Shown here one piece after another: positions 8,969-59,674 of a DNA stretch of 64,000 nucleotides; positions within the stretch are counted from its first letter, which is position 1; every line of letters starts with the position of its first letter. Made by a program: the position numbers and the translations under genes. The notes beneath the pieces are model-generated. The model ran no database searches, had not been told where the DNA came from, and saw only the letters and a program-made list of their open reading frames with translations. The stretch is from Flavobacteriales bacterium (GTDB taxonomy: Bacteria; Bacteroidota; Bacteroidia; Flavobacteriales_D; Sanyastnellaceae), in the NCBI GenBank assembly GCA_041391745.1, contig JAWKNK010000002.1, forward strand, positions 203,576 through 267,575, written 5' to 3'.

Positions 8969-9442
8969 TTACTTTGGTAATGCCAATCTGAAGCCCACGT
9001 CATAGATTCCTTTGAGGTCGTCTTGACGCATTGCTTGATGAATTTCTAACTTGTAATTTCCTGAAAGTGGAAACTTCTTTCTTTCTCTGAATAAAACGCG
9101 ATTGTCGAAAATGCTTCCTAAACCTGATCCGTACCAGTTGCCCATTGCGTCTGCAAGCGGACACTCCAAAGTGTCGACACTTTTCTTTCCGTTAGGAAAT
9201 TCCATCTCGATAAAGAGATACAAATTGCTGAACGGATATTCTTCTCCATTTCGCAAAGTGACGTAGAAATTATAGAGCTGAAGAGTGTCTTCTACGTTGA
9301 ATTCGAATGTCTTTACGTCATTCAAATTCCACACACCGTTTTCAACGGGGTATGATTGTTCGTACACCACTGCGTTGTCGCACGCCGTGAAAAGCACAGA
9401 CATCGCTGCCAGGAAAATAATGGATAAAAAGGTTTTATTCAT
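8969..9442 (-). CDS. gldH: Gliding-motility lipoprotein GldH
   Basis: 158 aa from the ATG at 9442: MNKTFLSIIFLAAMSVLFTAC (lipobox) ...YPFSNLYLFIEMEFPNGKKSVDTLECPLADAMGNWYGSGLGS...YKLEIHQAMRQDDLKGIYDVGFRLALPK. The start overlaps the PSP1 stop in the sequence ATGAATAA. The longer 286-aa ORF in the track is an artefact of reading through without a stop. Confidence 0.8.
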   Translation of the reverse strand: MNKTFLSIIFLAAMSVLFTACDNAVVYEQSYPVENGVWNLNDVKTFEFNVEDTLQLYNFYVTLRNGEEYPFSNLYLFIEMEFPNGKKSVDTLECPLADAMGNWYGSGLGSIFDNRVLFRERKKFPLSGNYKLEIHQAMRQDDLKGIYDVGFRLALPK

Positions 9443-10910
9443 TGCTTGCAGGAGGTCCTTGAGGTTTTGGTCCTTTATTGTTTCGCGGTCCGCGGTTTCT
9501 ATTGTTTCTGTTCTTGTTAGGTCTTGGTGCACCTTGATTTGGATTTCCGCCTTCTTGATTTTGTGCAGGGGCTTGATCCGGTTTGCCTTGCGGATTATTT
9601 TGAGGTTTGTTTTGAGGACGGTTTTGTTTGTTTTGAGGCTTGTTCGGGTTGTCTTGGTTTCCTTCCTTCTGTCTTTGAGGTTGAGGACCGCCTTGTTTTC
9701 TTGGCCCGTCGTTTCTTTTATTTTCGGGACGGTTGCCGCCAGCAGGACGATTTGGATTCTCGCCTCTATTGTTGTTGTTGCCTCTTCCTCTAGGCTTATT
9801 GCGGCTTTGCTTTCTGCGCTTTTGATCAAAGCGGGTAAGAGAATCCTGACCCACTACTTGAGCGAAATCTGTTTCTTCGATTACCTCTTCTACATCCTCC
9901 ATGAAGTCTTCTACATCTTCGATCTTGATTCCCTTTTTGTTCATCTCAATAATCTCACGAACAGCGTCAACCGACAAAGGGAAAATGGCTTCGCCAGGTT
10001 GGCCTTCATACATGTAGTAGAGCGTTCGTTTGAAAATATCTGTTTTGAAATGAACAGCGGTTCCTTTAGGAAGGTGCAATTTCACAGTGGTACTTGGAAT
10101 ATCCTTTAAGGCTTCTGCGTATTGATCCAATTCATAGTTGAGGCAGCACTTGAGCTTTCCACATTGACCTGCCAGTTTTGACGGATTAAGAGAAAGTTGT
10201 TGGTAGCGCGCTGCGCTTGTAGATACTGCTCTGAAATCGGTGAGCCAACTTGAGCAGCACAATTCGCGACCGCAGGAACCGATACCGCCGAGTCGACCCG
10301 CTTCAACGCGATAGCCAATTTGACGCATTTCGATGCGCACTTTAAAAGATTCAGCGTATTTCTTAATCAACTCACGGAAATCGACGCGATCGTCGGCCGT
10401 GTAGAAGAACGTGGCTTTTGACTTGTCGCCTTGGTATTCTACATCGCTGATTTTCATAGAAAGGTTGAGTTCACGCGCCATGGTACGCGCGCGCATCATG
10501 GTGTCTTGTTCAGACTTGCGCGCTTCTTGCCATTTCTCGATATCCTCTTCTTTTGCCTTTCTGTAGATCTTCTTGATTTCGTAGTTGTCTTTGATGTCCT
10601 TATGCTTCATTTGCATGCGCACGAGTTCACCTGTGATAGAGACCACACCGATATCATGACCTGGAGAGGCTTCCACGGCGACAACGTCGCCTGGGAATAG
10701 TTCTATGTTGCTAGCGTTTCTGTAAAATCCTTTTCTGCTATTTTTAAATCTAACTTCAACAATATCAAAAGGCTTTTGGCCTAGCGGAAGTTCCATTCCT
10801 GCTAGCCAGTCGAATACGTCTAATTTATTGCAGCCATAGGTACCGCAAGCACCGTTATTTTTACATCCACCAGGCAGTCCGCCGTTGGTGGAACAACTTT
10901 TACATCCCAT
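9435..10910 (-). CDS. PSP1 C-terminal-domain protein (RicT/YaaT-like) with a Cys-rich N-terminus and a long N/P/Q/K/R-rich disordered tail
   Basis: MGCKSCSTNGGLPGGCKNNGACGTYGCNKLDV... then the PSP1 core ...FFYTADDRVDFRELIKKYAESFKVRIEMRQIG...GSCGRELCCSSWL...CGKLKCCLNYE. The tail of about 130 aa is low complexity (NKPQNKQNRPQNKPQ...). Gene order is PSP1-gldH-holB on the - strand. Confidence 0.8.
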   Translation of the reverse strand: MGCKSCSTNGGLPGGCKNNGACGTYGCNKLDVFDWLAGMELPLGQKPFDIVEVRFKNSRKGFYRNASNIELFPGDVVAVEASPGHDIGVVSITGELVRMQMKHKDIKDNYEIKKIYRKAKEEDIEKWQEARKSEQDTMMRARTMARELNLSMKISDVEYQGDKSKATFFYTADDRVDFRELIKKYAESFKVRIEMRQIGYRVEAGRLGGIGSCGRELCCSSWLTDFRAVSTSAARYQQLSLNPSKLAGQCGKLKCCLNYELDQYAEALKDIPSTTVKLHLPKGTAVHFKTDIFKRTLYYMYEGQPGEAIFPLSVDAVREIIEMNKKGIKIEDVEDFMEDVEEVIEETDFAQVVGQDSLTRFDQKRRKQSRNKPRGRGNNNNRGENPNRPAGGNRPENKRNDGPRKQGGPQPQRQKEGNQDNPNKPQNKQNRPQNKPQNNPQGKPDQAPAQNQEGGNPNQGAPRPNKNRNNRNRGPRNNKGPKPQGPPASNE

Positions 10911-10957
10911 ACATTCAGTACATTTCGTTCAACACAAGGGTCAAATATAAGGAGAAA

Positions 10958-11335
10958 GGGGACACCTTGCCTCCTCATGATATAGGTTGACAGGGATCGA
11001 GGGGACAATGATTCAAGGATTCGAGGATTCAAGAAACAAGAATTCGAGGATTCAAGGATTCGAGAGGACACCTGTCCCAGGCTCGTCTTGGGAAGGATTT
11101 GGGGGGACAAGAGAGTTTGAAGGTGTGGGAGTGTGAGAGGGATCGTTTTGCAAAACGTGACCCTTCGCTTTGATTTCTTTTTCATGCTTCGCATTTAAAG
11201 AAATCGACGCTCAGGGACCGGGGCTCGAGGAGTAGAATTTGGCGGAGCAGCAAAACTTTGTTTTGCTGCTCCGCGACCATCTTTAGTGCTGCACACGGGC
11301 CCTCGAGCGTAGCGAGAGGTGTTCAGGCTTAGTGC
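10958..11335. repeat. Mosaic intergenic repeat element, copy A: GGATTCRA 8-mer tandems, a conserved two-hairpin core, GTG-rich tracts and a 14-bp perfect hairpin
   Basis: (GGATTCAA/GGATTCGA)n runs at ~11000-11065. The core GGACACCTGTCCCAGGCTCGTCTTGGGAAGGATT (11066-11099) is shared with 25639-25672. GAGTGTGGGAGTGTGAGAGGG follows. The segment ...CTCAGGGACCG... is the reverse complement of 25866-25876. A hairpin GCGGAGCAGCAAAA-cttg-TTTTGCTGCTCCGC lies at 11242-11274. Confidence 0.55.
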
Positions 11336-11845
11336 TTATGAAGTCCAGTGGCGGTGAGGGTCATTGCATAATTCTTTAATTGCGATTGAGCCTGCACTTT
11401 GAAGCTCATTTGCACTACTCCACCGTGGCGATGCACTTGAGCTCGATGGCGATGGGGTGGGTAGAGAGTTGATCTCCACCGTGGTGCGACATGGCTGTGC
11501 ATCTTTGAAATACTCAGCATAAAGCCTGTTGTAGGTATGAAAGTCACGTTTCATATTCACAAGGAAAACAGTAACATCTACCAAGTTTTCCCATTTGCTT
11601 CCGCTTGCTTCTAGAATAGCTTTCACATTTTGAAAAACGCTGCGGCATTGCGCTTCGAAATCAAATTCCACAAAATTGCCGTTTTTATCCAAAACCAACC
11701 CTGGCACTCCACTATCTGTGGCATCACTACCTGCAACTCGAGGTCCAACACCTGACAAGAACAACAAATTGCCAACACGACGAGCGTGTGGGTATAATCC
11801 AACTGGTTTTGGGGCTTTATCTGTAGAAATTTTCGATTCGCTCAT
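11336..11845 (-). CDS. ridA: RidA/YjgF-family enamine/imine deaminase, with an apparent -1 frameshift in a CCCC run about 30 codons from the end
   Basis: RidA motifs are present: ...PVGLYPHARRVGNLLFLSG...RTTVEINSLPTP. The canonical C-terminus PIAIELKCIATVE* sits in the adjacent frame, ending around 11410. It would be restored if cccacccca were cccaccccca. As sequenced, the ORF reads on into an S/P-rich tail, giving 169 aa. Confidence 0.7.
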   Translation of the reverse strand: MSESKISTDKAPKPVGLYPHARRVGNLLFLSGVGPRVAGSDATDSGVPGLVLDKNGNFVEFDFEAQCRSVFQNVKAILEASGSKWENLVDVTVFLVNMKRDFHTYNRLYAEYFKDAQPCRTTVEINSLPTPSPSSSSASPRWSSANELQSAGSIAIKELCNDPHRHWTS

Positions 11846-11848
11846 AAC

Positions 11849-13255
11849 TTATAATTTATACAAAGGTAAACTGTCGATGGTGCCATCGTGCCATTTTATT
11901 TCCATGTTATATGTACCTGGAAAAAGCATGTTTACAAAAATCTGATACACACTTTCTTCATTGGCTAACTCTTGTTTCACCAATTTGCCCGTGTTATTAT
12001 AGATTTTTATTTCACTAATTAATTTACCGTTCGGTGCTGTAATTGTCGTACTCTCATATGTTGGATTAGGCGACACATCAAATGCCTTCGCTAATGATTC
12101 TTCTGTCTCCACGCAGTCATTCAGCCATCGATATGCCCGCGGAAATTCCTCTGCCCAAAACGCTTCACTATGCGACCCTTCGGGCCAATCCATCATGAAT
12201 AGTTGGTTTTCTTGATATCCAATGTCTACCAACAAGTTGTTCATTTTAATCATATCCTGAAGAACCTCACCTCTTCCCTCATTCGTGCCGCAAGCATAAT
12301 AAATCTTAGTATCCACCTTCGGCATGCTGTTCGCAACCATTTTTTCTAGCTCGGGATCCGCCCAATATGCTGGCGATAAGACCATAGCTTTGGAGAACAC
12401 ATCAGGATATTTGATCACTGCTGCCAAGGCCATATTCGCACCCAATGAAGATCCGCCAATACTCGTATTCTTCCGATCCTTTAAGGTGCGAAAATTATAA
12501 TCGATAACCGACTTCAAATTCTTGGTGATGAACTCGAGAATTTCATTTCCTTGCGGTATGTTATGAAGAGAATCGTTGACTCCAAAAGTGTATTCATTCA
12601 ATCGATCATTTCCGCCATTGTCAATACCAACTATGATACTTTTTTGGCATCCTTTCAGCGATGACATCGTTTCGTCAATTTTCCATTCGCCAGCAAACGA
12701 TGTAAATCGATCAAACAAATTCTGACCATCAAGCATATACACTACTGGGTAGTTGACACCACTCACCTGATATTCTTCAGGAAGGTAAACCCAAACTCGT
12801 CTTCGTTTTTTCAACTGAGGAATGAGCATGTCATTATCCAAAATGAGCACTTGTTCATTCATCGTTGTATTAATTGGAATATCCAGCCACTCCGCGACTG
12901 ATATCCCAAAAATACTCCCGTTTTGAATCAATACCTGATGGGTCATCGGTTCGTTCGTCTCGGCATTTCGTTCTGCCGACGCGTCAGATCCACGGTGTAC
13001 TTTTAATGTACACGTCATCCCTTCTGGTTCATCTTCGATTAAAAAATAATAGTGATCATCCTTTTTACGCATTGTTCTTGTAACCGCTTTGCTTGTATCA
13101 TCATCCAACTTATAGGTAACATAAAGCAAATCCAACATTGGCGTATTCTGCGGAACGGACTCCAAGAAAATTGAAGTCTGTGCGCTAGTGCTAAATACAT
13201 TTAAAATCAGGTATGAGCAAATTACCACATACCGAATGATCATTCGGTTTTTCAT
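11849..13255 (-). CDS. Secreted alpha/beta-hydrolase (esterase-family fold) with a type-A T9SS C-terminal sorting domain
   Basis: Signal peptide present. Esterase core ...PVVYMLDGQNLFD...IGGSSLGANMALAAVIKYPDVFSKAMVLSPAYW. C-terminal ~80 aa ...VSPNPTYESTTITAPNGKLISEIKIYNNTGKLVKQ...GTYNMEIKWHDG is typical of a T9SS sorting domain. Confidence 0.75.
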   Translation of the reverse strand: MKNRMIIRYVVICSYLILNVFSTSAQTSIFLESVPQNTPMLDLLYVTYKLDDDTSKAVTRTMRKKDDHYYFLIEDEPEGMTCTLKVHRGSDASAERNAETNEPMTHQVLIQNGSIFGISVAEWLDIPINTTMNEQVLILDNDMLIPQLKKRRRVWVYLPEEYQVSGVNYPVVYMLDGQNLFDRFTSFAGEWKIDETMSSLKGCQKSIIVGIDNGGNDRLNEYTFGVNDSLHNIPQGNEILEFITKNLKSVIDYNFRTLKDRKNTSIGGSSLGANMALAAVIKYPDVFSKAMVLSPAYWADPELEKMVANSMPKVDTKIYYACGTNEGRGEVLQDMIKMNNLLVDIGYQENQLFMMDWPEGSHSEAFWAEEFPRAYRWLNDCVETEESLAKAFDVSPNPTYESTTITAPNGKLISEIKIYNNTGKLVKQELANEESVYQIFVNMLFPGTYNMEIKWHDGTIDSLPLYKL

Positions 13256-16005
13256 TAATGAATTATTTTACCTGTTTTAGTAAGGTTTCCAACACTTAGT
13301 TTATAGATATAAGTTCCTTTCGGCAAATCACTTCCCACCTGCCAGCGAATTTTCTGATCGCCAGCAGTTGCATTTTTCACTGACTTATTCCAAACTTTTT
13401 TACCTGAAATATCATAAACCTCTAGGATAATATTCTCCTGATTACGCGTCTTGAAAGCCCACTGTACCACATCACTAAATGGATTTGGATAAACAGTAAT
13501 ATCACTTTTCAAAACGGCCAACTCATTTACATTCGCCGCTTCTACAGGCTCCACCGATGCTGTATAAATTCCGTTACCGTGTGTGGCTATAGCGATGGTT
13601 CCATCATATGGACGAGCCTTCACCATATTGATCACCACATTTCCAATGGTCTCTGCACCCTCCATTTCCCAAACCGTGTTGTCGCCATCCAGCAATGAAG
13701 TGCTGTACAAACCTGCGCTGGTTCCTGCGAAATAAACTACCGGATCACTTGGATACATTTCTACCCAATACACCGCAGGACCATTTCCAGTTCCGTCAGG
13801 GTTCTCTTCCAAATTACCACTGACATTCTCCCAGGTTTCACCTTTATCAGAACTATGGAAAATGCTTTGAACATTGTAGTTGGAGAAGCTTACCATCACC
13901 TCTTCAACGTTCAAGTCATTGGCTACTATACATGAAGTGTAAGCACCAGTTGGGAATAAATCTGACGTCAAATCAAATCGTGTAGGATTGGTATAAGTGG
14001 TGTCCAATCGATATACATATCCATTTGATGTTCCGTAATAAATGACATCATGATCTATTGGTGCCATGTCTAGCGTAGTGATCGCTCCAACAGATGTTGG
14101 CACTAAACTTTCCGATATATTGTCCCAATATTCATTGGGGAGTTTATTGATATAATTACCTGTAACAGGAATGTCGTTCACATTTGCAAGGTGGCGTATG
14201 GCTCTGTTTCCAGCTATAAAAACATCATTGTGCGTGAAAGGATCCAAAATAAATGGATTGATAAACAAATACTGTGGACCGCTTTGCTGATCAATTCGTT
14301 CTGTACTTAAAAGGTTTCCTTGCTCGTCAATCGTCTTTTTATACATTCTTCCCAATTGCGAGCTCGTGATGATGAAATTTCGTCCTTGAGGAAGCGCACA
14401 AAAAGCACCATCGTCAGCATGCACTTCTTTCCAAGTTTCTTGGTTGTTTGAATTATCTGTAATCCATGTTCCATTGTCTTGCATGCCACCGAATACATAT
14501 TCGGTTTCTGCATAACCTTGCTCCATAGCCACCGTGTAGAATTGAGTTGTAACGTAGCCATTATTCAATGGAGTCCAAAATACAGAATCTGCGAGCGCAT
14601 CATCAGTTCTATAAACACCGCCGTCATTAGCACTAAACATCACCCCCGGGTTGGCTTGACTAAACAGCATCAAATGCTGATCGCTATGGTGATTAGGATA
14701 GCTGTAATTCAAAGGGTTTTCGATGTTGCAACGGTATCCTCCAATCCAGTCTTGATCATCTTGCTCAAATCTTGAGAAACTTCTATGAATATTCACGCCA
14801 CCAATAAAAAGAATGTCTTCTGTTGGGTGGTGAGCGATGCAAAGGTCATAGCTGTTTTGCGAACGGAAGGTTCCAAAATCGAACGTAGTGCCGATTTCCA
14901 ATTCACAAGGATCATCAGGCAAGTTGGCCGACAAGTCGTACCAAACGCCTCCGCCCCCTGTTCCATTACCAGAAAGATATTCGTATCGATATAAAATGTG
15001 ATTGATATCGTTTGCACCATTAGACATTTCTCCAATGAGGTACATTTTAGAATGATCTTGAGGATCGAAACACATCATACATCGTTGTTGATCATACCAT
15101 GCATCAGGAGTAATTTCTGTCCATTCCAATCCGTCATCAGATCTGAAAACACCGCCTTGATTCGCTCCATTGGCAAAAGAAAGCGACGCGTAAACAACTC
15201 CATCATCTGCTACGACCACATCAACATATCTTGAACCTCCTGGGCCAAAACCTAAGACTTGTTCCCAAGAATCCCCTCCATCAGTGCTTCGAATAATTCC
15301 ATTATATACAGCGGCATAAACCTCATCTTCTGTTTCATTTGATGGGTCGATTGCCATTTTTTGTACAAAATCGTAAGAACCGCTTTGTAAAATATTTTGC
15401 GGCGTGTTGCTCGATGTTGATAGTAATGGTGACCATGTCAATCCATTGTCTGTACTCTTATAGACTCCATCCCCACTAAACAAAGAAGTAAAAGACGTAC
15501 CGCTAACAACGCCATAAAATTCTTCACCACTTCCGAAATACCAAGTATCTTGATGACCTTCTCTTGTATCTTGAATGATACATGCCACGCTGTGCATTTG
15601 ATTTGGCGCAGTTGTTTTCGCCCAGGTTTGACCACCGTTTGTGGTGCGCCAAACGCCGCCCGAAACACTTCCCGCAAGCATGATGTTTTCATTTCTAACA
15701 TCATAAGCCAAACTTCTGGTTCGTCCACCTTTATTGAAAGGGCCTCGTGAGGTCCAACTTAAAGAACGATCACTTGAGCGTCTAGGTAATCTTGAGGCAA
15801 ATTCTGCCACAGCACTTTTCATGTGAATTGGAATTTCACCAGTAGCCGGATCCTTCAAACGAGAGTATTCATAGAACTTCCTACTTCCTGGATTCACTCC
15901 AAATCCTTCTTGCTGAGGAGCGGCAGGAGTAACAGGACTTGATTGATTGCATGCTGCAAGACAAGTCACTACAGCAACGAAAAACAAATTGGTCAAGGTT
16001 TTCAT
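13255..16005 (-). CDS. BNR/Asp-box-repeat beta-propeller lipoprotein with a T9SS C-terminal sorting domain
   Basis: Lipobox LAACNQ. Repeated SxDxGxTW motifs (TTNGGQTW, STDNGLTW, STDGGDSW, SDDGLEW, SSDKGETW). C-terminal ...ITVYPNPFSDVVQWAFKTRNQENIILEVYDISGKKV...GTYIYKLSV is a sorting-domain pattern. Confidence 0.7.
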   Translation of the reverse strand: MKTLTNLFFVAVVTCLAACNQSSPVTPAAPQQEGFGVNPGSRKFYEYSRLKDPATGEIPIHMKSAVAEFASRLPRRSSDRSLSWTSRGPFNKGGRTRSLAYDVRNENIMLAGSVSGGVWRTTNGGQTWAKTTAPNQMHSVACIIQDTREGHQDTWYFGSGEEFYGVVSGTSFTSLFSGDGVYKSTDNGLTWSPLLSTSSNTPQNILQSGSYDFVQKMAIDPSNETEDEVYAAVYNGIIRSTDGGDSWEQVLGFGPGGSRYVDVVVADDGVVYASLSFANGANQGGVFRSDDGLEWTEITPDAWYDQQRCMMCFDPQDHSKMYLIGEMSNGANDINHILYRYEYLSGNGTGGGGVWYDLSANLPDDPCELEIGTTFDFGTFRSQNSYDLCIAHHPTEDILFIGGVNIHRSFSRFEQDDQDWIGGYRCNIENPLNYSYPNHHSDQHLMLFSQANPGVMFSANDGGVYRTDDALADSVFWTPLNNGYVTTQFYTVAMEQGYAETEYVFGGMQDNGTWITDNSNNQETWKEVHADDGAFCALPQGRNFIITSSQLGRMYKKTIDEQGNLLSTERIDQQSGPQYLFINPFILDPFTHNDVFIAGNRAIRHLANVNDIPVTGNYINKLPNEYWDNISESLVPTSVGAITTLDMAPIDHDVIYYGTSNGYVYRLDTTYTNPTRFDLTSDLFPTGAYTSCIVANDLNVEEVMVSFSNYNVQSIFHSSDKGETWENVSGNLEENPDGTGNGPAVYWVEMYPSDPVVYFAGTSAGLYSTSLLDGDNTVWEMEGAETIGNVVINMVKARPYDGTIAIATHGNGIYTASVEPVEAANVNELAVLKSDITVYPNPFSDVVQWAFKTRNQENIILEVYDISGKKVWNKSVKNATAGDQKIRWQVGSDLPKGTYIYKLSVGNLTKTGKIIH

Positions 16006-23857: not shown

Positions 23858-25445
23858 ATGAAATTATTTAGATACTTCCTTTCCATTTCATTGATGCTTC
23901 AGATCTTTTTTGCATCAGCTCAAACCCAGGAATTTCAAGATAAATATCCCAATGGCAACGTGCGAAGCGAGGGTATTTACGAAAGAGGATTTGAAGATGG
24001 TCTTTGGAAATATTATTATGAAGACGGAACTCTGCAAGAAGAAGCCAACTACAAAATGGGAAAGTTTCATGGCAGCGTGTTTCGCTACCATCCAAATGGA
24101 AAATTGATGGTAGAAGGCTACTTCAAAAATGACAAGCAAGACAGCATCCAGCGCACATTCACGGCAGACAGCATCCTTGTGGAGCAAGGCCTTTGGGCAA
24201 AGGGAGTGAAGACCGGAGAATGGGATTATTTCTACGCAAGTGGTGATACCATGATGATAGAAAATCATCTTGACTCTGTGGTAATGATGCTCGAGTATTT
24301 CACTTCATCGGGTGAGCATACTTTGAAAAAAGGCAACGGCACCGTCGCGGATCATTTTGAAAACGGTCGATTAAAATCGATCACGAATTATAAAAATGGT
24401 TTGCCCGACGGAAAATTCGAGGAATACTTTTCAGGTGGTTCCGTTCGCATTTCTGGAAATTATATTCAAGGGAAAAAAGATGGGGAATGGGTCGATTTAT
24501 TTCCAACAGGAAAAACAAAAAAATCACCACTTATAGTCAAGGTATTTTAAATGGAAAAATCGAAGAGTATTATGTGAATGGTCAGCTCAACGTAAAAGGC
24601 AATCACACCAATGGTAAAAAGAATGGACATTGGGAATGGTTTTTAGAAGGTGGTGAAAAAGACATGCAAGGGGACTTTGTAGACGACGTGCAGCAAGGAG
24701 ATTGGATCTATTGGTATAAAAACGGAAACAAGCAGTACTGGGGAGCCTACGAAGATGGCAGATGCATGGCACATGGCAATATCAATATTGGGGAGGAGAA
24801 AAATGGAAGTCGGGCAACTATGCAAAAGGACTGAAAGAAGGAGCTTGGCAATATTGGTTTGAAAATGGAAAATTGTTGATGGAGGAAATTTCAAAAACGA
24901 TTTGGAACAAGGAGTTTGGACGAGTTATTACGATTCGGGAAGATTAAAAGACAAAGGCTCGTACGATAAAGGCAAGCTGAAAGGTGCATGGGAAGGCTAT
25001 TATCCTAATGGAGTGAAAACCTATGTAGGAAGCTGAATGGTGATGTGAAAACAGGAAGTTGGTCATATTGGTCAGACCAAGGAAAATTGGAAAAGAAAGA
25101 AACCTACAACGCTGAGGAGTATTGAATGGTCCAAGCGAAACCTATGGTGAGAATGGAAAGCTTGAAAGCAAGGGTTCATTCAAAAATGGTAAGCCCAATG
25201 GAAAGTGGGAGTACTATTATGGACATGGAGCGCCGCTCAGATTTTGCAGTTTCAAAGAAGGCAAGCTCGATGGTAAGTCAACCATGTATGGAAAGAATGG
25301 AAGAATTGTAGAAGAGTGCGACTACAAAAACAATAAGCGTCACGGTATCTACACCAGCTACGATGAAAAAACGGGCAAGGTTGTTCTCAAGCAAGAATAC
25401 AACGAGGGTGTAGCGGGCAAAGTGCTCGAGGGAAAACCGAAGTAG
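23858..25445 (+). pseudogene. MORN-repeat / YwqK-family (antitoxin-like) repeat protein gene, fragmented by at least five 1-nt frameshifts
   Basis: Signal peptide at 23858. The GxWxxYYENGxLxxEGxYKNGKKxGxW repeats continue through four track ORFs (23858-24550, 24487-24834, 24762-24947, 25122-25445) and two short untracked frames (24950-25120). The shifts are at an A7 run (~24520), ~24770, GG/GGG (~24883), agc(t)tgaatgg (~25033) and tat(t)tgaatgg (~25110). Confidence 0.6.
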
Positions 25446-25890
25446 AAAAGGAGACTAGAGAGTGTGAGGGTTTGGAAGAGTTGGATTATTTGGAGAGATT
25501 GGATTTTTTTGGAATTGTTGGAAGAATTGGAAAGTATGGAAGTCTGAGAATTTTCCAATAGTAGATTCACATTGCTCAAGGATCGAGGATTCAAGGATTC
25601 GAGGATTCGAGGATTCGGATTCGAGGATTCAAGATCGAGGACACTTGTCCCGAGCTCGTCTCGGGAAGGATTGAGGATTGGAGAGACAAAAGAGTGTGAG
25701 AGTTTGGAAGATGGGAGTGTGGGAGTGTGGGAACGTAATGTGAATCCACTGACGAAAACAATTCTCGATGCTCAATTCTCGAATCGAGAATCGGGAATCG
25801 GGAATCGAGAATCGGGAATCGAAAATCCTGCAGATTAAAAGGGCGGTCCCTGAGAGGAGCGCAAGCGAAGTCGAAGGGGGAACCAAAAAA
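25446..25890. repeat. Mosaic intergenic repeat element, copy B: TTGGA-rich tract, GGATTCRA tandems, the conserved core hairpins, GAGTGTGGGAGTG tracts and GAATCGRGAATCGGG tandems
   Basis: The core GGACACTTGTCCCGAGCTCGTCTCGGGAAGGATT (25639-25672) differs from copy A by compensatory changes (CCCGA/TCGGG here, CCCAG/TTGGG in A). CGGTCCCTGAG at 25866-25876 is inverted relative to copy A. The convergent gene ends flank the element. Confidence 0.55.
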
Positions 25891-25912
25891 AAACCGCGTT
25901 TCCGCGGTTTTT
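25884..25912. terminator. Bidirectional intrinsic terminator
   Basis: AAAAAAAAA-CCGCG-tttc-CGCGG-TTTTT. On the - strand it is followed by T9 and terminates the isomerase gene. Confidence 0.7.
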
Positions 25913-25916
25913 GATA

Positions 25917-26900
25917 TTAGATTTTTGCTAGTTCACCTTTGAGGTAGATAATCGCTGGGATAGCCACTGGATCTTCGTTTTTCAACTCCGCCAAGTGAAT
26001 GCTCAACCAGTCACCTACATGGTTCAAATAGAAAGTACGCTCCACGCGATTGCTTCCCTTCGACCAAATTTCAATAATCGTATCGCACTTCTCACCCATC
26101 AACTTTTTACAAAGTTCCATGCGTACTTGTGATCGTTTGTGATCATCTTCATTGCGAAGCATCAACACAGCAACGCGATTGTCGCCACCAGTCCAACCTA
26201 CCAGTTCGTTGTGGTTCATTTCTGGGAACACGTGGTGCCAACATAGCATTTTGCTATTCTCATTGATTTGCTGTCTCCAACGAATAGCAATGCCTTCGTA
26301 TTGAGCTTCTGCATATAGAATTGGAATGCGACTCACAATTTGATCTGCAATGGCCTTTGTGCTCGACTGGATTTCTGCAGCGTCTGCCTCCAATAGAGTA
26401 ATTACGTTTTCAAGTGAAGCTTCAAATGAATTATCGATTAAGCCATAAGCATTCAACACATAAAATTGCTGAACCGCGCTGTAACCAAACATCGCACGTG
26501 GAGGATTTCCTCCAGGAATGATGATACAGTTCAATCCGAATTCTTTGGCAAAACCTGCGATTTTACCACCGCTAGTAATACATGCAATCTCAGCACCTTT
26601 TTCGCGTGCCTCGTGGAAAGCTGCTACTGTTTCTTCAGTATCACCGCTATAACTACTGATGATTACCAAAGTGTCCTGATTTACAAATCCTGGAAGTACA
26701 TAGTCATTGGTACAGATGATTGGAAGCGCGCATGTCTCACCAACAAGTTGAGACACGATTTTACCACCAATTCCTGATCCACCAAGACCAGAGATAACAA
26801 TATTCTTATAAGTTCTATTCGGAATGTTGAATTGCGCAGCACGACCAATTTTAATGGCCTCACGCAAATGTGTTGGAAAAGCTTCTACTAATGCTTTCAT
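25917..26900 (-). CDS. Bifunctional phosphoglucose/phosphomannose isomerase (SIS domain, PGI/PMI family)
   Basis: 327 aa: ...NIVISGLGGSGIGGKIVSQL...LVIISSYSGDTEETV... with the two SIS domains characteristic of archaeal-type PGI/PMI. Confidence 0.7.
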   Translation of the reverse strand: MKALVEAFPTHLREAIKIGRAAQFNIPNRTYKNIVISGLGGSGIGGKIVSQLVGETCALPIICTNDYVLPGFVNQDTLVIISSYSGDTEETVAAFHEAREKGAEIACITSGGKIAGFAKEFGLNCIIIPGGNPPRAMFGYSAVQQFYVLNAYGLIDNSFEASLENVITLLEADAAEIQSSTKAIADQIVSRIPILYAEAQYEGIAIRWRQQINENSKMLCWHHVFPEMNHNELVGWTGGDNRVAVLMLRNEDDHKRSQVRMELCKKLMGEKCDTIIEIWSKGSNRVERTFYLNHVGDWLSIHLAELKNEDPVAIPAIIYLKGELAKI

Positions 26901-27921: not shown

Positions 27922-27950
27922 ATAAAAAAAATCCCGACCGAAGTCGGGAT
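27922..27950 (-). terminator. Intrinsic terminator after the Ig-like T9SS-substrate gene
   Basis: - strand: ATCCCGAC-ttcg-GTCGGGAT followed by TTTTTTTT. Confidence 0.7.
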
Positions 27951-31220: not shown

Positions 31221-31243
31221 CAAGTATTTGTAAAACCGAATGT

Positions 31244-32758
31244 TTATTCGGTTTCGTTTGCATCTGTTGTTGGAGTGGTTGTTTCCTTTCCTTCATTCTG
31301 ACCTTTCAAATAAGTTGGAAGGTTTAGACCTGCCATATTGAATAAGTCATTCAATGGTGGAACAGCTTTCATCATTCCGCTTACGAAATTTGCGGTTGAG
31401 CCATTGCCATCAGCGTTGTTTCCAGAATCCCAAACAGTAACTTTATCAATTTTGATATTCTTAACTGCTTCCACTTGTGTTTTAACCAGCTCAGGAAGTT
31501 TTTCAATAAGCAAGAGTTGGAATGCATTTGTAGAATCACCACCAGCAGCCTTAACCACTTGCTCATAACCTTCCGCTTGTTTGGTAAGGATTTCATAAAG
31601 ACCTTTCGCTTCTGCTTCCATCTTTGCATAGATCGCGTCAGCTTCCCCTTTCGCGTTTACGCGAATTCTTTCCGCTTCTGCTTGTGCTTCGATGATGGCT
31701 CTTTGCTTAGCGATTTCCGCAGGTACAACTACGTTTGCGATTTGGGTTGAGCGTTCTCTTTCCGAACGCGCCAATTCCGCCTTTTGTTCTGCTACATAAG
31801 CCGCTTCAAGCGCCAAGGCTTGTTGTACTTTCTCGGCAGCCATTGCAATACGAAGTGCTTCCGCTTCCTTCTCTCTTCTTAATGCTTCGGAAGATGCAAT
31901 AGCAATCTTCGCTTCGTTTTCCCCTTTAATCGCAATCGCATTCGCTTCAGAGGTTTTGATACGCGTATCTCTTTCCGCTTCGGCCTTACCGATAGATTCA
32001 TCTCTACCCGCGGCAGCGATGCTGATTTCTCTGTCTTTTTGCGTAATCGCAATTTTAACGTCACGATCTCTGTGCGTTTCAGCGATAGAGGTGTCCTTTT
32101 CTCTATCAGCCAAAGCCTTTCCTGTTTCCCCGATCTTCTCTTGTTCAGCCACAGAAATCTTAGCTTCGTTGATCGCTTTCGCCGCAGCTTCTTTACCAAG
32201 AGCCTCGATGTAGCCAGATTCGTCCTTGATGTCCGTAACGTTTACGTTAATCAATTTCAACCCGATTTTTTTCAATTCGCTATCGACATTCTTAGAAATA
32301 TTCTCCAAGAATTTATCTCTATCCGAGTTGATTTCTTCGATGGTCATCGTAGCAATTACCAGACGTAATTGACCGAACAAAATATCTTTTGCCAATTCCT
32401 GAATTTGTTCTGAAGACAAACCGAGCAAACGTTCGGCCGCAGTATTCATATTGTCCGCTTCCGTAGAGATGGCAATAGTAAAACGACATGGAACGTCCAC
32501 GCGAATATTCTGCCTGCTCAGTGCATTGGTCAAGTTCGCTTCAATTGAAAGTGGTTTCAAGTCTAGGTATGCATAGTCTTGAATTACGGGCCAAATAAAG
32601 GCACCACCACCATGTATACATTTTGCAGAAGATCCGCCTGTGCGGCCATATACTACAAGTATTTTGTCGGAAGGACATCGCTTATACCTCGCAACAAGTG
32701 CAGAGATTAAGACGAAAAATACAACAGCTCCGACTGCTATAATTAACAACTGATTCAT
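31244..32758 (-). CDS. Flotillin / SPFH (band-7) domain protein
   Basis: N-terminal TM helix, an SPFH domain, and a long A/E/K-rich flotillin coiled-coil. Length is 504 aa. Confidence 0.8.
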   Translation of the reverse strand: MNQLLIIAVGAVVFFVLISALVARYKRCPSDKILVVYGRTGGSSAKCIHGGGAFIWPVIQDYAYLDLKPLSIEANLTNALSRQNIRVDVPCRFTIAISTEADNMNTAAERLLGLSSEQIQELAKDILFGQLRLVIATMTIEEINSDRDKFLENISKNVDSELKKIGLKLINVNVTDIKDESGYIEALGKEAAAKAINEAKISVAEQEKIGETGKALADREKDTSIAETHRDRDVKIAITQKDREISIAAAGRDESIGKAEAERDTRIKTSEANAIAIKGENEAKIAIASSEALRREKEAEALRIAMAAEKVQQALALEAAYVAEQKAELARSERERSTQIANVVVPAEIAKQRAIIEAQAEAERIRVNAKGEADAIYAKMEAEAKGLYEILTKQAEGYEQVVKAAGGDSTNAFQLLLIEKLPELVKTQVEAVKNIKIDKVTVWDSGNNADGNGSTANFVSGMMKAVPPLNDLFNMAGLNLPTYLKGQNEGKETTTPTTDANETE

Positions 32759-43481: not shown

Positions 43482-43483
43482 AA

Positions 43484-43530
43484 CGACAAGGATTCAAGTA
43501 GACAAGGATTCAATTCTCAATTCTCGAAGG
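43484..43530. repeat. Short member (copy C) of the GGATTCAA / CTCAATTCTCGAA repeat family, between convergent genes
   Basis: GACAAGGATTCAAgtaGACAAGGATTCAATTCTCAATTCTCGAAGG shares its modules with copies A and B. Confidence 0.4.
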
Positions 43531-44035
43531 ATGAATAAGGAATTTGGAATGTCATTATATAATCATTCATGTAATATCCATTGCCGATGTGTACATCGAC
43601 TTCTTCAACTACTTTGAACTGCATTCGATCATAGAAAGTTTTGGCTTTGTTGAATCGATTTACATTAAGTGATAAGGACTTTCCGTTTTGCTTTTTTACC
43701 TCCGAAATAACATTCTCAAGAAGTGATTTTCCCGCTCCTATGCCTTGAATAGTAGGGAGGACGTAAATCTTATGCAGTTTAAATTCGTGAGGTTCAATTT
43801 CAGAATATGAGGCAAAACCAATAGGTGTATTTCCATCATACATCAAAATGAAAACACATCCTTCCTCTTCCATCTGACGCTTCAATGATGCTTCACTATA
43901 CATCATTTCCAACATGTAATTGATTTGTTCTTCGCTTAAAATTTCACGATAGGTTTGCGGCCAAACTTGCAAATTCAATTCTTGAATTAGAGGAATGTCA
44001 GAAGTATTCGCAAATCGGAATTTGAAATTAGCCAT
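43517..44035 (-). CDS. GNAT-family N-acetyltransferase
   Basis: ...IQGIGAGKSLLENVISEV... acetyl-CoA-binding motif. Length is 172 aa. Confidence 0.75.
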   Translation of the reverse strand: MANFKFRFANTSDIPLIQELNLQVWPQTYREILSEEQINYMLEMMYSEASLKRQMEEEGCVFILMYDGNTPIGFASYSEIEPHEFKLHKIYVLPTIQGIGAGKSLLENVISEVKKQNGKSLSLNVNRFNKAKTFYDRMQFKVVEEVDVHIGNGYYMNDYIMTFQIPYSSFEN

Positions 44036-50497: not shown

Positions 50498-50529
50498 AAA
50501 ATCCCGACAGTTGTCGGGATTTTTTTTTC
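50498..50529 (+). terminator. Intrinsic terminator after the GDH gene
   Basis: ATCCCGACAG-TTGTCGGGAT followed by TTTTTTTTT. Confidence 0.75.
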
Positions 50530-58387: not shown

Positions 58388-59674
58388 ATGAAAAACATCC
58401 TGAGATCATTATTTTTAATTCAAGTGTATTCGTTTGGGATAATGGCCACATTATCTTGTTCTAAAAACGAGCCTGAAATCGCTGACAACTCCTCCACCGC
58501 AACTTCGGAATTTGCATTTTACCAGTATCTTCAAGTTCCTGGAAGTGACCCAGACAATGGATTGGTTGCAAAACAAGTTGACAATACCACAGGTGATGAA
58601 ATTTTCTACTATGGGTCTTTCGATGAAGATGGACTTCCACAATCACCCAAGTCTATTGTTGTCAAAAAATTCTCTACCGATACTATGATGAATGTTTTCG
58701 TAGATGAATACATGCGACCAACGATGGTTTATTTTTCACACACAAATGGAGAAAAATACTCGACATTATGGACATATGAATGGAGTTCAGACAATACATT
58801 TTTATTCAGAAAATTCACTTACGATTGGGCACCGGAAACAGACAATCTCGACTATGAGTCATTTGTGACATACACCGATGGCCAGTATTATTTCGAAGAT
58901 AATTTTGTGAGATCATTGCATACTGAACTCGATGTTCCAGCAATGTTTGAAGAAAATATGAACTACAGAGGTGGAACTGCCTTTTGGACTAGTGTTGCTA
59001 GCAATGTAGTTACAGGCATCGGAGTAGTTGCAGCGGTTGGCGTAGGCATTTACGGTGCGGTTACCTTCGGAACTGTGTATGGTGTGGTTGGTGCCCTTAC
59101 CATCCTTACTGGTGTATTGATGGGAACGGCTAATGCTAGCGAACCACCTATCAACAACAACAATAATAACACGCCACCCAATCCGAACAATACTCCAAAT
59201 CCGAATCCGGTAAGTAATGTAAATAATCCTACCAACCTGACTACCACAACGGGAACCACAGGTACTACGGGCACAACAGGTACTACAGGATCTGACGGAA
59301 CTACCACAGGAACCACGGGAACAACGGGAACAACAGGAACGACGAGTACTTCTGGAACCGACGGAACAACAAGTACAACGAGTACTACTGGAACTGACGG
59401 AACTACAGGAACTACAAGCACAACAGGTACAACAGGTACAACGAGCACAACAGGTTCTGATGGAACAACTACTGGTACTACGGGTACTACGGGAACTACT
59501 GGCACTACAAGTACAACGAGCACCTCAGGAACAGATGGTACTACGGGCACCACTAGTACAAATAGTACAACAGTGACAACTAACGACACCATTATCGGAA
59601 TGACGATAGATCAACAAAAACTTAACAATCAATTGCGTCGTGAGTTGTTCAATAATCGCCGAGGTAAGAACTAA
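58388..59674 (+). CDS. Lipoprotein with an N-terminal globular domain, a glycine-zipper TM segment and a long Thr/Gly-rich repeat region
   Basis: Lipobox ATLSCSK. GIGVVAAVGVGIYGAVTFGTVYGVVGALTILTGVLMG. About 120 aa of (TTG)n/TST repeats. Confidence 0.55.
   Translation: MKNILRSLFLIQVYSFGIMATLSCSKNEPEIADNSSTATSEFAFYQYLQVPGSDPDNGLVAKQVDNTTGDEIFYYGSFDEDGLPQSPKSIVVKKFSTDTMMNVFVDEYMRPTMVYFSHTNGEKYSTLWTYEWSSDNTFLFRKFTYDWAPETDNLDYESFVTYTDGQYYFEDNFVRSLHTELDVPAMFEENMNYRGGTAFWTSVASNVVTGIGVVAAVGVGIYGAVTFGTVYGVVGALTILTGVLMGTANASEPPINNNNNNTPPNPNNTPNPNPVSNVNNPTNLTTTTGTTGTTGTTGTTGSDGTTTGTTGTTGTTGTTSTSGTDGTTSTTSTTGTDGTTGTTSTTGTTGTTSTTGSDGTTTGTTGTTGTTGTTSTTSTSGTDGTTGTTSTNSTTVTTNDTIIGMTIDQQKLNNQLRRELFNNRRGKN
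59221..59580 (+). repeat. Tandem 9-nt (ACN-ACN-GGN) repeats encoding the Thr/Gly-rich tract
   Basis: Imperfect repeats actacgggt/actacagga/acaacgagc. They lie inside the coding sequence with no spacer architecture. Confidence 0.6.

What the first reader, a model, noticed from the sequence alone, without database searches (positions are those of the whole stretch)
10958..11335. Mosaic intergenic repeat, copy A, with conserved hairpin core and a 14-bp perfect hairpin
The repeat sits in the 5' region of the PSP1-gldH-holB operon.

It starts with GGATTCAA/GGATTCGA 8-mer tandems (~11000-11065). The core GGACACCTGTCC-CAGGCTCGTCTTGGG-AAGGATT follows at 11066-11099. After that come GTG-rich GAGTGTGGGAGTGTGAGAGGG tracts.

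The same core occurs at 25639-25672 with two changes in the second stem: CCCAG...TTGGG here, CCCGA...TCGGG there. Base pairing is preserved, which argues for selection on a hairpin (RNA or cruciform DNA).

Copy A also contains a module (CTCAGGGACCG, ~11199-11209) that is inverted relative to copy B, so the modules are shuffled and flipped.

A 14-bp perfect hairpin GCGGAGCAGCAAAA/TTTTGCTGCTCCGC lies at 11242-11274. No U-tract follows it, so it is not a simple terminator.

The architecture resembles REP/BIME-like or MITE-like elements, or an sRNA family, that I cannot assign to a described Bacteroidota repeat.
Basis: seen in the sequence. Interest (0 to 1): 0.6.

Follow-up and report, generated by a model that had tools for sequence, protein, structure and literature searches.

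The report
Strain-variable intergenic mosaic repeat, two copies
A real repeat of about 160 bases (an 8-base tandem array, a 34-base palindromic core and a G-rich tail) sits in two spacers of an uncultured Flavobacteriales genome; it comes and goes between close relatives and behaves like unstable or selfish spacer DNA, not like a conserved RNA gene.

Summary
The sequence features are real. The 34-nt core occurs exactly twice in 64 kb (0 expected). Each copy lies inside a ~160-nt homologous unit: an octamer array, the core, then a G-rich tract (A 10983-11145; B 25562/25576-25736).

There is no Rfam match. There is no excess folding stability (z -1.0 to +0.3). No family turned up in genome or metagenome scans.

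The 7-bp hairpin stays paired in every copy. With 4-5 sequences this is not significant (100-130 of 500 shuffles do as well).

The informative evidence comes from relatives.
- A conspecific assembly (98% nt identity in the flanking gene) lacks the whole unit at locus B and has three fewer heptamers in the neighbouring array.
- In a sister species the two arms of a 14-nt inverted repeat that brackets unit B abut as one palindrome.
- The sister species has an orthologous octamer array at locus A. It has C-free TTGGAA-type arrays at the same spacers, but no GGACAC palindrome.

The window holds no transposase or RAYT gene. No terminal inverted repeats or target duplications were found that both copies share.

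Best reading: a lineage-specific, slippage-prone, minisatellite-bearing intergenic repeat. It is loosely BIME/MITE-like, and the closest described analogue is BrickBuilt of Porphyromonas. It lies in palindrome-rich spacer DNA. Interest is modest.

The parts
10911..11414 (.). Locus A: the whole variable spacer between the RidA stop and the PSP1/RicT start.
   Evidence: ORFs and Pfam. True RidA end from tblastn with the sister protein. Homology to the sister species stops at about 10962.
10983..11145 (+). Unit copy A: leader, octamer array, core and G-rich tail.
   Evidence: blastn, MAFFT and nhmmer against copy B. G 37%, C 13%.
11006..11061 (+). GGATTCRA octamer tandem array, about 7 units. An orthologous array is present in the sister species.
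   Evidence: TRF. Alignment with L042. nhmmer hit on L042/L043, E = 0.005.
11066..11099 (+). Core copy A: palindrome GGACACCTGTCC (11066-11077) overlapping a 7-bp hairpin (11075-11093).
11100..11145 (+). G-rich, C-poor GTG tract that ends the unit.
11146..11414 (.). Cluster of nested palindromes. These are CGTTTTGCAAAACG (11146-11159); the CCCTTCG...CTCAGGG module (11161-11216); a long-range inverted repeat (11189-11202 with 11372-11385); and the 15-bp hairpin. The cluster is strongly structured on both strands.
   Evidence: Inverted repeats. Fold z = -6.0 and -5.8.
11242..11274 (.). Perfect 15-bp hairpin with a 3-nt loop and no U-tract. Single copy in the window.
25446..25916 (.). Locus B: the whole spacer between the convergent MORN-repeat gene and the PGI gene.
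25446..25544 (+). C-free TTGGAA-type short tandem arrays. This is the most extreme GC-skew window of the 64 kb. The composition is conserved in the sister species but the sequence is not.
25560..25573 (+). Left arm of the 14-nt inverted repeat that brackets unit B. In the sister species it abuts the right arm as one palindrome.
25576..25736 (+). Unit copy B: octamer array 25579-25641, core 25639-25672, GTG tract 25673-25735. It is absent from the conspecific contig L041 and from the sister species at this locus.
25737..25750 (+). Right arm of the inverted repeat. It is present in the unit-less alleles.
25781..25827 (+). GAATCGR heptamer array, 6.7 units here and three fewer in L041. The motif is the inverse of the octamer's GATTC.
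25844..25880 (+). GGTCCCTGAG...CGAAGGGG hairpin module, inverted relative to locus A. Conserved in L041 with 1 nt changed.
25889..25912 (.). Bidirectional intrinsic terminator shared by the two convergent genes. Conserved in all relatives.
43482..43560 (+). Locus C: a small third mosaic, with 2 x AAGGATTCAA, CTCAATTCTCGAA and GGAA motifs, between convergent genes.
   Evidence: families D3 and D5; E = 0.32, weak.

Best explanation
This is a lineage-specific, low-copy dispersed intergenic repeat embedded in hypervariable, palindrome-rich spacer DNA. It is most likely neutral or selfish DNA, not a structured RNA gene.

The unit is about 160 nt. It consists of a short leader, a GGATTCRA octamer minisatellite, a 34-nt core made of two overlapping small palindromes, and a G-rich, C-poor tail.

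Shown here:
1. The unit exists in two diverged copies 14.5 kb apart, in the same orientation.
2. At locus B it lies between the two arms of a 14-nt inverted repeat. In the sister species those arms form one uninterrupted palindrome.
3. A conspecific strain lacks the unit at B.
4. The neighbouring heptamer array differs by exactly three units between strains.
5. The octamer array at locus A is orthologous in the sister species.

Inferred:
- The arrays grow and shrink by replication slippage.
- Because GATTC and GAATC also occur in the palindrome arms, the arrays probably grew from arm-derived seeds.
- The unit was copied from an A-like donor into the centre of the palindrome at B, by an unidentified transposition, template-switch or recombination event. 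The 20% divergence between A and B is far more than the 2% between strains, so the copying probably predates the strain split.
- The unit-less allele in the conspecific strain is then more likely a later microhomology deletion (GGAAGT / GGGAGT) that left the scar AGTGTGGGAAC.

Any effect on neighbouring genes (insulation, termination) would be incidental.
For: - Repeat reality and extent. nhmmer finds only A and B as full copies in 171 kb of window plus relatives.
- Presence/absence and array-length polymorphism in L041, which has 98.1% nt identity in PGI.
- Sister species L044/L045/L047 (85% nt identity): uninterrupted palindrome TAGATTCGCATTGC|AATGCGAATCCA, only a 2.5-unit proto-array of GAATCGA, the same terminator, C-free arrays of different sequence.
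- Inverted repeat bracketing unit B, 13 of 14 complementary.
- Orthologous octamer array upstream of PSP1 in the sister species, with two independent short-read contigs ending at the same base inside it.
- No Rfam family. No folding signal for the unit.
- Indels are concentrated in the arrays while the core is indel-free.
- A described Bacteroidota analogue carries an internal minisatellite, leader and tail, and varies between strains: BrickBuilt, PMC4596501.
Against: - Only two full copies and one fragment were seen. The rest of the 307-kb contig and of the genome could not be searched, so neither 'low-copy' nor 'dispersed family' is established.
- No terminal inverted repeats or target-site duplications shared by both copies. 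No transposase, integrase or RAYT in the 64 kb. Mobility is therefore inferred only from one indel polymorphism, which a plain deletion also explains.
- The C-free composition of the flanking arrays is kept across species while their sequence is not. This hints at some constraint that a purely neutral model does not predict.
- The hairpin is paired in all 4 window and sister-species sequences. A Bacteroidales MAG carries a similar motif with a different stem base pair; one of its two copies has a single unpaired position.
Confidence: 0.6

Rival explanations
1. Structured RNA element. The core hairpin UCCCRRG-loop-CYYGGGA is a selected RNA structure on the plus strand, for example a 3'-UTR element or small RNA. 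G.U pairs occur only on the plus strand.
For: - All 7 pairs are kept in A, B and two sister-species sequences, with one double and two wobble changes.
- At B the plus strand is the 3' UTR of the MORN gene up to the terminator.
- Two intergenic copies in a Bacteroidales MAG, just after stop codons in the sense orientation, share GGACACTTGTCCCGA...TCGGGAAGGA. They have a U-A pair where the window has G-C.
Against: - Pair statistics are not significant: 130/500 and 100/500 shuffles do as well.
- Fold z-scores for the core are +1.0, -0.1, 0.0 and -0.6. In copy A the hairpin is not in the minimum-energy structure of the whole unit.
- No Rfam hit.
- The first palindrome is missing in the sister species.
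- At A the plus strand is antisense to both neighbours and has no promoter-like site.
- A conspecific strain lacks the unit.
- The same stem, TCCCGA/TCGGGA, is used by ordinary terminators of this genome, so stem similarity can be convergent.
- Genome and metagenome scans gave otherwise only chance hits.
Confidence: 0.12
2. Rho-dependent terminator or insulator tracts. The strand complementary to the G-rich arrays gives C-rich, G-poor, unstructured RNA (unit: C 37%, G 13%; left part of B: C 33%, G 3%). That RNA would load Rho on read-through transcripts coming from RidA (locus A) and PGI (locus B), before they enter the PSP1 promoter or run antisense into the MORN gene.
For: - Composition.
- Locus B holds the two most extreme GC-skew windows of the 64 kb and locus A is in the top ten.
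- The minus-strand RNA of the unit is weakly folded: -21.8 kcal/mol over 163 nt.
- The same compositional feature is kept at the same spacers in the sister species although the sequence differs.
- At the two tandem-gene loci (window A and sister L042) the C-rich strand is the transcribed one.
- From general knowledge: Rho prefers C>G unstructured RNA, and Bacteroidota encode Rho.
Against: - At convergent loci either orientation fits, so only two loci are informative.
- PGI already has a strong intrinsic terminator upstream of the tract.
- A strain does without the unit.
- There is no expression or termination data.
- This explains the composition, not the core or the repeat structure.
Confidence: 0.12
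3. Protein-binding array. The contiguous 8-bp and 7-bp GATTC/GAATC repeats and the GGACA-N2-TGTCC palindrome act as iteron-, operator- or centromere-like sites, or as a dense cluster of GANTC methylation sites that regulates the PSP1-gldH-holB promoter.
For: - Regular spacing of a 5-bp motif in direct and inverted arrays.
- GANTC density is 10-30 per kb in the loci against 2.9 per kb elsewhere.
- Array A lies about 55 nt upstream of a TAnnTTTG box (read from the sequence).
Against: - GANTC is not depleted or enriched genome-wide: 201 observed against 233 expected.
- Locus B is a convergent terminator region with nothing to regulate.
- Unit number varies between strains and the palindrome is absent in the sister species.
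- No candidate binding protein is nearby.
Confidence: 0.05
4. Assembly artefact. The MAG contig was misjoined or mis-polished through repeats, so the RidA|PSP1 junction and the unit copies do not reflect the real chromosome.
For: - RidA carries one frameshift and the MORN gene several, while the sister genes are intact. This suggests an indel-prone assembly.
- Both loci are synteny breakpoints relative to more distant relatives, and the RidA|PSP1 junction is not shared with the sister species.
- Short-read contigs break in the array.
Against: - The two copies are about 20% diverged, so a collapse or misjoin through them is unlikely.
- Independent Logan assemblies reproduce the arrays, the module and the terminator at B, and the array at A.
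- The MORN|PGI arrangement is shared with the sister species.
- Even a misjoin would leave the unit as a real multi-copy sequence.
Confidence: 0.05

Closest known systems
BrickBuilt MITE of Porphyromonas gingivalis (Klein et al. 2015, PMC4596501)
   Same: - Found in Bacteroidota and strictly intergenic.
- A non-repetitive leader and tail flank an internal array of spacer-less tandem repeats whose number varies between copies and strains.
- Small inverted-repeat ends.
- Species-restricted.
   Different: - BrickBuilt has a 23-nt repeat unit; this one has 8 nt.
- BrickBuilt has 19 copies per genome; here 2-3 were seen in 64 kb.
- Its TIRs match IS5-family insertion sequences. Here no TIR is shared by both copies and no partner IS is known.
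- Promoter activity was shown for BrickBuilt and was not tested here.
- There is no sequence similarity.
REP / BIME elements with RAYT transposases (Nunvar 2010, PMC2817692; Ton-Hoang 2012, PMC3333891; Di Nocera 2013, PMC3733652)
   Same: - Intergenic clusters of small imperfect palindromes arranged as mosaics, with modules in alternating orientation.
- The palindrome flanking unit B starts with GTAG (GTAGATTC...).
   Different: - High copy number is not shown.
- No RAYT gene was seen.
- The core has no GTAG or CGTC tag.
- Tandem octamer and heptamer arrays are not part of BIMEs.
Insertions into the centre of REP palindromes (IS1397/ISKpn1, IS110-family ISPpu9; PMC1525189, PMC12288879)
   Same: At locus B a discrete segment sits between the two arms of a palindrome that is intact in a relative.
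   Different: The inserted segment is 160 nt and non-coding, and no transposase is known. The same pattern could arise from expansion at the palindrome centre or from template switching.
Intrinsic terminator hairpins of the same genome
   Same: The core stem TCCCGAG/CTCGGGA is nearly the stem of bona fide terminators at 27932-27949 and 50502-50519 (TCCCGAC...GTCGGGA).
   Different: The core hairpin and the 15-bp hairpin lack the A and T tracts that the real terminators of this window have.
Variable-number tandem repeats / contingency-locus microsatellites
   Same: Array length changes by whole units between strains (three heptamers).
   Different: The arrays are not inside a promoter spacer or a reading frame, so a phase-variation switch is not evident.

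Membership tests
REP/BIME | A 20-40 nt imperfect palindrome is the repeated unit. | tested here: inconclusive
   The core holds two small overlapping palindromes of 12 and 19 nt. The repeated unit itself is about 160 nt and mostly non-palindromic.
REP/BIME | High copy number, usually more than 100 per genome. | not testable with these tools
   Two full copies in 64 kb and none in 107 kb of relatives. The source genome is absent from the searchable genome collection.
REP/BIME | A GTAG or CGTC tetranucleotide at the 5' end of the palindrome. | tested here: not met
   The core begins GAGGACAC. GTAG occurs only in the separate flanking palindrome, GTAGATTCACATTGC.
REP/BIME | An associated RAYT (Y1 transposase) gene. 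| tested here: not met
   No PF01797-like hit or any other transposase hit among the 48 ORFs of the window that were scanned. The rest of the genome was not searched.
MITE | Terminal inverted repeats. | tested here: inconclusive
   Copy B is bracketed by a 14-nt inverted repeat, 13 of 14 complementary. Both arms remain in the unit-less sister allele, and copy A has only weak counterparts.
MITE | Target-site duplication. | tested here: not met
   No flanking direct repeat is common to A and B. There is only the imperfect GGAAGT/GGGAGT pair at the L041 indel and RGGAWCG at the unit ends.
MITE | Size 50-1000 bp, non-coding and intergenic. | tested here: met
   About 160 nt with no Pfam hit, located in spacers.
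MITE | Presence/absence polymorphism at orthologous sites. | tested here: met
   L041 (conspecific) and L044/L045/L047 (sister species) lack the unit at B. The absence in L041 may be a secondary deletion.
MITE | A partner IS or transposase with matching ends. | not testable with these tools
   None in the window. The genome is not available.
BrickBuilt-like minisatellite MITE | An internal spacer-less tandem array between conserved leader and tail, with repeat number varying among copies. | tested here: met
   TRF arrays of 7.1 units (A) and 8.5 units (B). The leader CARGGATCGAGG and the GTG tail align between the copies.
Rfam RNA family | A covariance-model match at the gathering score. | tested here: not met
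   Only two tRNAs were found in the window. Hits in the two loci under the E-value threshold are noise: miRNA models on hairpins, and CsrC at 17.8 bits against a gathering score of 61.
Structured RNA (generic) | Statistically supported covariation, and folding stability above shuffled sequence. | tested here: not met
   130/500 and 100/500 shuffles reach the observed pair measures. The unit's z-scores are -0.2, -1.0, +0.3 and -0.3.
Intrinsic terminator | A GC-rich hairpin followed by a U-tract. | tested here: not met
   Neither the core hairpin nor the hairpin at 11242-11274 has a T-run on either strand. The scan finds only 25889-25912 in locus B.
Rho-dependent terminator (rut region) | C-rich, G-poor, unstructured RNA downstream of a gene. 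| tested here: met
   Minus-strand RNA of the units has C 36-37% and G 13%. The left part of B has C 33% and G 3%. Weak fold. Function was not tested.

The most novel reading that the evidence does not exclude
Two more novel readings are not excluded.

1. The unit could be a new kind of non-autonomous element without TIRs or target duplication. It would carry an octamer minisatellite and insert into the centre of host palindromes. The core palindromes GGACA-N2-TGTCC / TCCCGAG-N5-CTCGGGA would be its recombination site.

2. The C-free arrays could be kept by selection on composition, for example as Rho-loading or RNA-binding-protein platforms in a Flavobacteriales lineage.

A similar motif, GGACACTTGTCCCGA...TCGGGAAGGA, lies just after stop codons in a Bacteroidales MAG. 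That would then point to a wider, undescribed Bacteroidota element.
Probability: 0.12. Interest if true: 0.55.

Novelty: new member of a known kind. Interest (0 to 1): 0.3.

Why it matters
If the reading is right, this is one more example of how Bacteroidota spacers are filled and reshaped by slippage-prone minisatellites and small palindromes.

Such sequences have practical consequences:
- They break short-read assemblies. Two independent contigs end at the same base in the array.
- They mark rearrangement junctions.
- They create strain-level markers.

The finding does not open a long-standing question. The points worth a follow-up are the insertion exactly between the arms of a palindrome, and the conservation of a C-free composition without conservation of sequence.

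Tried and rejected
- Genome-collection scan with GGACACNTGTCCCN{9,13}GGGAAGG. The source genome is not in the collection. Of 9 hits, 7 look like chance (coding regions, high-GC actinobacteria) and 2 are in one Bacteroidales MAG.
- The same pattern in metagenomes. Of 18 hits, all look like chance. One AT-rich, ORF-poor, probably eukaryotic contig (L028/L033) has a superficially similar context.
- Six-frame translation of both units used as a protein query, to catch spurious ORFs over other copies: nothing.
- Octamer triplet scan of viral contigs. Four unrelated contigs carry GGATTCRA arrays in spacers. I judged these to be independent slippage products, not homologues.
- blastn of locus A against plasmids and of locus B against phages: nothing meaningful.
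- Literature search for the sequences themselves: only unrelated primers.
- Integrated island between the two direct copies: rejected, because the 14.5 kb holds housekeeping genes (LepA, tricorn protease, RidA) that are syntenic with relatives.
- CsrA-sponge idea (many GGA motifs): not pursued. There is no CsrB/CsrC-like Rfam match above noise and no evidence for CsrA.
- G-quadruplex: the G-runs have loops that are too long.
- tRNA T-arm origin of TCGAATCC: only a resemblance.
- GANTC methylation: the site is not unusual genome-wide.
- Exact-protein look-ups for RidA, PSP1, the esterase and HolB of the window failed. Relatives were reached through cluster members instead.

Full report
**Setting**

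The window comes from an uncultured Flavobacteriales genome. The NCBI MAG proteins MEZ47986xx lie on a 307-kb contig. GC content is 41%.

Locus A (10911-11414) lies between two minus-strand genes.
- Its right-hand neighbour is a RidA gene. The ORF 11336-11845 is 169 aa only because of a 1-nt frameshift near 11453. The true stop is at about 11415.
- Its left-hand neighbour is PSP1/RicT (9435-10910), followed by gldH and holB.

Locus B (25446-25916) lies between the 3' ends of a MORN-repeat gene (plus strand, fragmented by frameshifts) and a bacterial-type phosphoglucose isomerase gene (25917-26900, minus strand).

**Checking the observation**

- The octamer array is at 11006-11061 (period 8, 7.1 copies) and at 25579-25641 (8.5 copies).
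- The 34-nt core is found only at 11066-11099 and 25639-25672, even with 3 mismatches allowed. Shuffled sequence gives 0.00.
- The two cores differ at four positions, and the 7-bp stem UCCCRRG/CYYGGGA stays fully paired.
- CTCAGGGACCG is at 11210-11220, and inverted at 25844-25854. It belongs to a longer hairpin module, CCCTGAG...GCGAAG...GAAGGG.
- The perfect hairpin at 11242-11274 has 15 pairs (z = -7.5) and no T-run. It is unique in the window.
- The real unit of homology is larger than the core: A 10983-11145 matches B 25562-25735 at 78-80% identity outside gaps, with many indels in the arrays.
- A small third mosaic with the same motifs lies at 43482-43560.

**Is it an RNA?**

- Rfam gives nothing at gathering thresholds and only noise at E <= 1.
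- The unit folds no better than dinucleotide shuffles on either strand: z = -0.2, -1.0, +0.3, -0.3.
- The core hairpin forms locally on the plus strand but is not unusually stable: z = +1.0 and -0.1.
- I counted pairs on A, B and two sister-species homologues. The stem is 100% paired, with one pair changed on both sides and two wobble changes. But 130 of 500 column shuffles do as well.
- Adding two similar sequences from a Bacteroidales MAG does not change this: 100 of 500.
- The core is not significantly better conserved in substitutions than the rest of the unit (30/34 against 78%, p = 0.10). It is only free of indels.
- The first palindrome, GGACACYTGTCC, is missing from the sister homologue.
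- The same TCCCGA/TCGGGA stem is used by ordinary terminators of this genome at 27932 and 50502.
- At B the plus strand is a 3' UTR. At A it is antisense to both neighbours.

Taken together, the case for selection on an RNA hairpin is weak.

**Is it a widespread family?**

- One scan of 185,579 species-representative genomes and one of JGI metagenomes, with a pattern that left the inner stem and loop free, returned 9 and 18 hits. Almost all are chance.
- The source genome itself is not in the genome collection.
- Two hits in one Bacteroidales MAG (L002, L005) are a genuine small repeat just after stop codons. They share six unforced bases with copy B. I record this as an open lead, not as homology.
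- A six-frame protein trick and searches of plasmids and phages found nothing.

**Comparison with close relatives**

This was the most informative step. Exact-protein cluster look-ups led to Logan assemblies of two relatives:
- a conspecific strain (L041, 98.1% nt identity in PGI);
- a sister species (L042-L049, about 85% in PGI and 80% in PSP1).

At locus B the conspecific contig has the same terminator and the same CCCTGAG module (1 nt changed, plus a 13-nt insertion). Its heptamer array has exactly three fewer units. It lacks about 180 nt that contain the octamer array, the core and most of the G-rich tract. The junction reads GGAAAGTATGGAAGT|GTGGGAAC.

In the sister species the same spacer has:
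- C-free TTGGAA/GTGGAAA arrays of different sequence;
- an uninterrupted palindrome, TAGATTCGCATTGC|AATGCGAATCCA;
- a hairpin homologue, GTCCCGAGCCAGATTCGGGA, without the GGACAC palindrome and without an octamer array;
- a 2.5-unit proto-array of GAATCGA;
- the same terminator.

In the window the two arms of that palindrome (25560-25573 and 25737-25750, 13 of 14 complementary) are separated by 163 nt. The homology between A and B begins within a few bases of the left arm. So unit B is a discrete segment lodged at the centre of a palindrome.

At locus A, homology with the sister species stops at about 10962. Beyond that the sister species has a weakly alignable octamer-like array. Two independent short-read contigs end at the same base inside it.

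In the sister species RidA is followed after 57 bp of TTGGAA arrays by a convergent alpha/beta-hydrolase gene, not by PSP1. The RidA|PSP1 junction is therefore specific to the window's species. More distant relatives have RidA-DUF3108-PGI-LplA with 30-80-bp spacers and no such arrays. Both loci are therefore old rearrangement junctions.

**Anatomy beyond the unit**

- The right half of locus A (11146-11414) is a cluster of nested inverted repeats. It is far more stable than shuffles on both strands (z = -6.0 and -5.8).
- Locus B holds the two most extreme GC-skew windows of the 64 kb (+1.00 and +0.89). Locus A is among the top ten (+0.66).
- Base composition: the units have G 36-37% and C 13%. 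The left part of B has 3% C.
- The octamer (GGATTCRA) and heptamer (GAATCGR) arrays carry the same GATTC motif in inverse orientation, as do the palindrome arms. This suggests the arrays grew from arm-derived seeds. That step is inference.
- No transposase, integrase or RAYT is encoded in the window.

**Interpretation**

The best-supported reading (about 0.6) is a lineage-specific, slippage-prone intergenic repeat that carries a minisatellite and sits in palindrome-rich spacer DNA. It was duplicated once or a few times, and it is gained or lost between strains.

Copies A and B differ by about 20%, while the strains differ by about 2%. The duplication therefore predates the strain split. The unit-less conspecific allele is more likely a microhomology deletion that left the scar AGTGTGGGAAC. 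An allele that never had the insertion and carries a separate 25-nt deletion cannot be excluded.

How the copy reached the centre of the palindrome is not shown. Transposition in trans, template switching and recombination are all possible.

Rival readings:
- a selected RNA hairpin (0.12);
- Rho-loading C-rich tracts on the minus-strand transcripts (0.12), which would explain conserved composition without conserved sequence;
- a protein-binding or GANTC-methylation array (0.05); GANTC is not unusual genome-wide;
- an assembly artefact (0.05); independent assemblies reproduce the arrays.

**Comparison with known systems**

- The architecture is closest to BrickBuilt of Porphyromonas gingivalis, a Bacteroidota MITE with leader, tail and an internal 23-nt minisatellite that varies between copies and strains (PMC4596501).
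- It resembles BIMEs in being a mosaic of small palindromes. It fails the tested REP criteria (no GTAG/CGTC tag on the core, no RAYT). Copy number is untestable here.
- It meets the MITE criteria of size, non-coding intergenic location and presence/absence polymorphism. It does not meet the criteria of shared TIRs or target duplication.
- Its position inside a palindrome recalls IS1397 and IS110-family insertions into REPs (PMC1525189, PMC12288879), but no transposase is known.

I file it as a new member of the general kind 'small dispersed intergenic mosaic repeats', not as a member of any named family.

**Verdict**

Novelty is low to moderate and interest is 0.3.

Noticed in passing
window 11415-11845 (minus strand), near 11453-11456: The RidA gene has a 1-nt deletion in a C-run. 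The sister protein aligns at 97.7% over residues 1-131 in one frame and 100% over residues 131-143 in the next. The annotated 169-aa product therefore has a false C-terminus that runs into the repeat region.
   Followed up: yes
window 23858-25445 (plus strand): The MORN-repeat gene is split over at least three reading frames, while the sister species has an intact 518-aa gene. This is either a pseudogene or indel errors of a long-read assembly. It warns that single-base irregularities in the arrays may be errors.
   Followed up: partly
window 13231-13248, 14488-14505, 31235-31252, 62373-62390 (weaker: 29109, 50930): A second palindrome family, ACCGAAT-N4-ATTCGGT, has four perfect copies in 64 kb. 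Some lie at gene ends and one lies inside the sortilin-like gene. It could be a terminator stem family or an operator.
   Followed up: no
window 27932-27949 and 50502-50519: Canonical terminators share the stem TCCCGAC...GTCGGGA, almost the stem of the core hairpin. The one at 27932 lies inside the 309-aa DUF3108 ORF, whose real start is therefore further downstream (the sister gene is 273 aa).
   Followed up: partly
window 58388-59674 (plus strand), repeats 59239-59580: A gene with long 9/27-nt tandem repeats (ACNGGNACN...) and a weak collagen-repeat Pfam hit. It probably encodes a Thr/Gly-rich repetitive surface protein.
   Followed up: no
L002 4560-4837 (Bacteroidales MAG BRZ_KH bin41): About 11 tandem copies of the 23-nt unit ACCCCTTTAGGCAAAAGGGTGCG lie in a spacer. 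The repeat length is the same as in the BrickBuilt minisatellite of Porphyromonas. The same MAG carries the two copies of GGACACTTGTCCC-hairpin-GGGAAGGA found after stop codons (L002 6007, L005 3126).
   Followed up: no
L036-L040 (IMG/VR contigs): GGATTCRA octamer arrays occur in spacers of four unrelated viral or giant-virus contigs, next to other GGGTTCAA/GGGGTCAAGG-type arrays. They are probably independent, but the recurrence of this unit is curious.
   Followed up: partly
L042 and L043, position 1 (sister species, 144 nt upstream of PSP1): Two contigs from different sequencing runs end at exactly the same base, ...AAGGATTCAC, inside the array. This suggests a longer repeat or palindrome there that short reads cannot cross.
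   Followed up: no
window 8969-9829 and 9435-10910 (minus strand): The long gldH ORF overlaps PSP1 by about 400 nt. Relatives call gldH as 157 aa starting at the PSP1 stop, so the upstream extension is spurious.
   Followed up: partly
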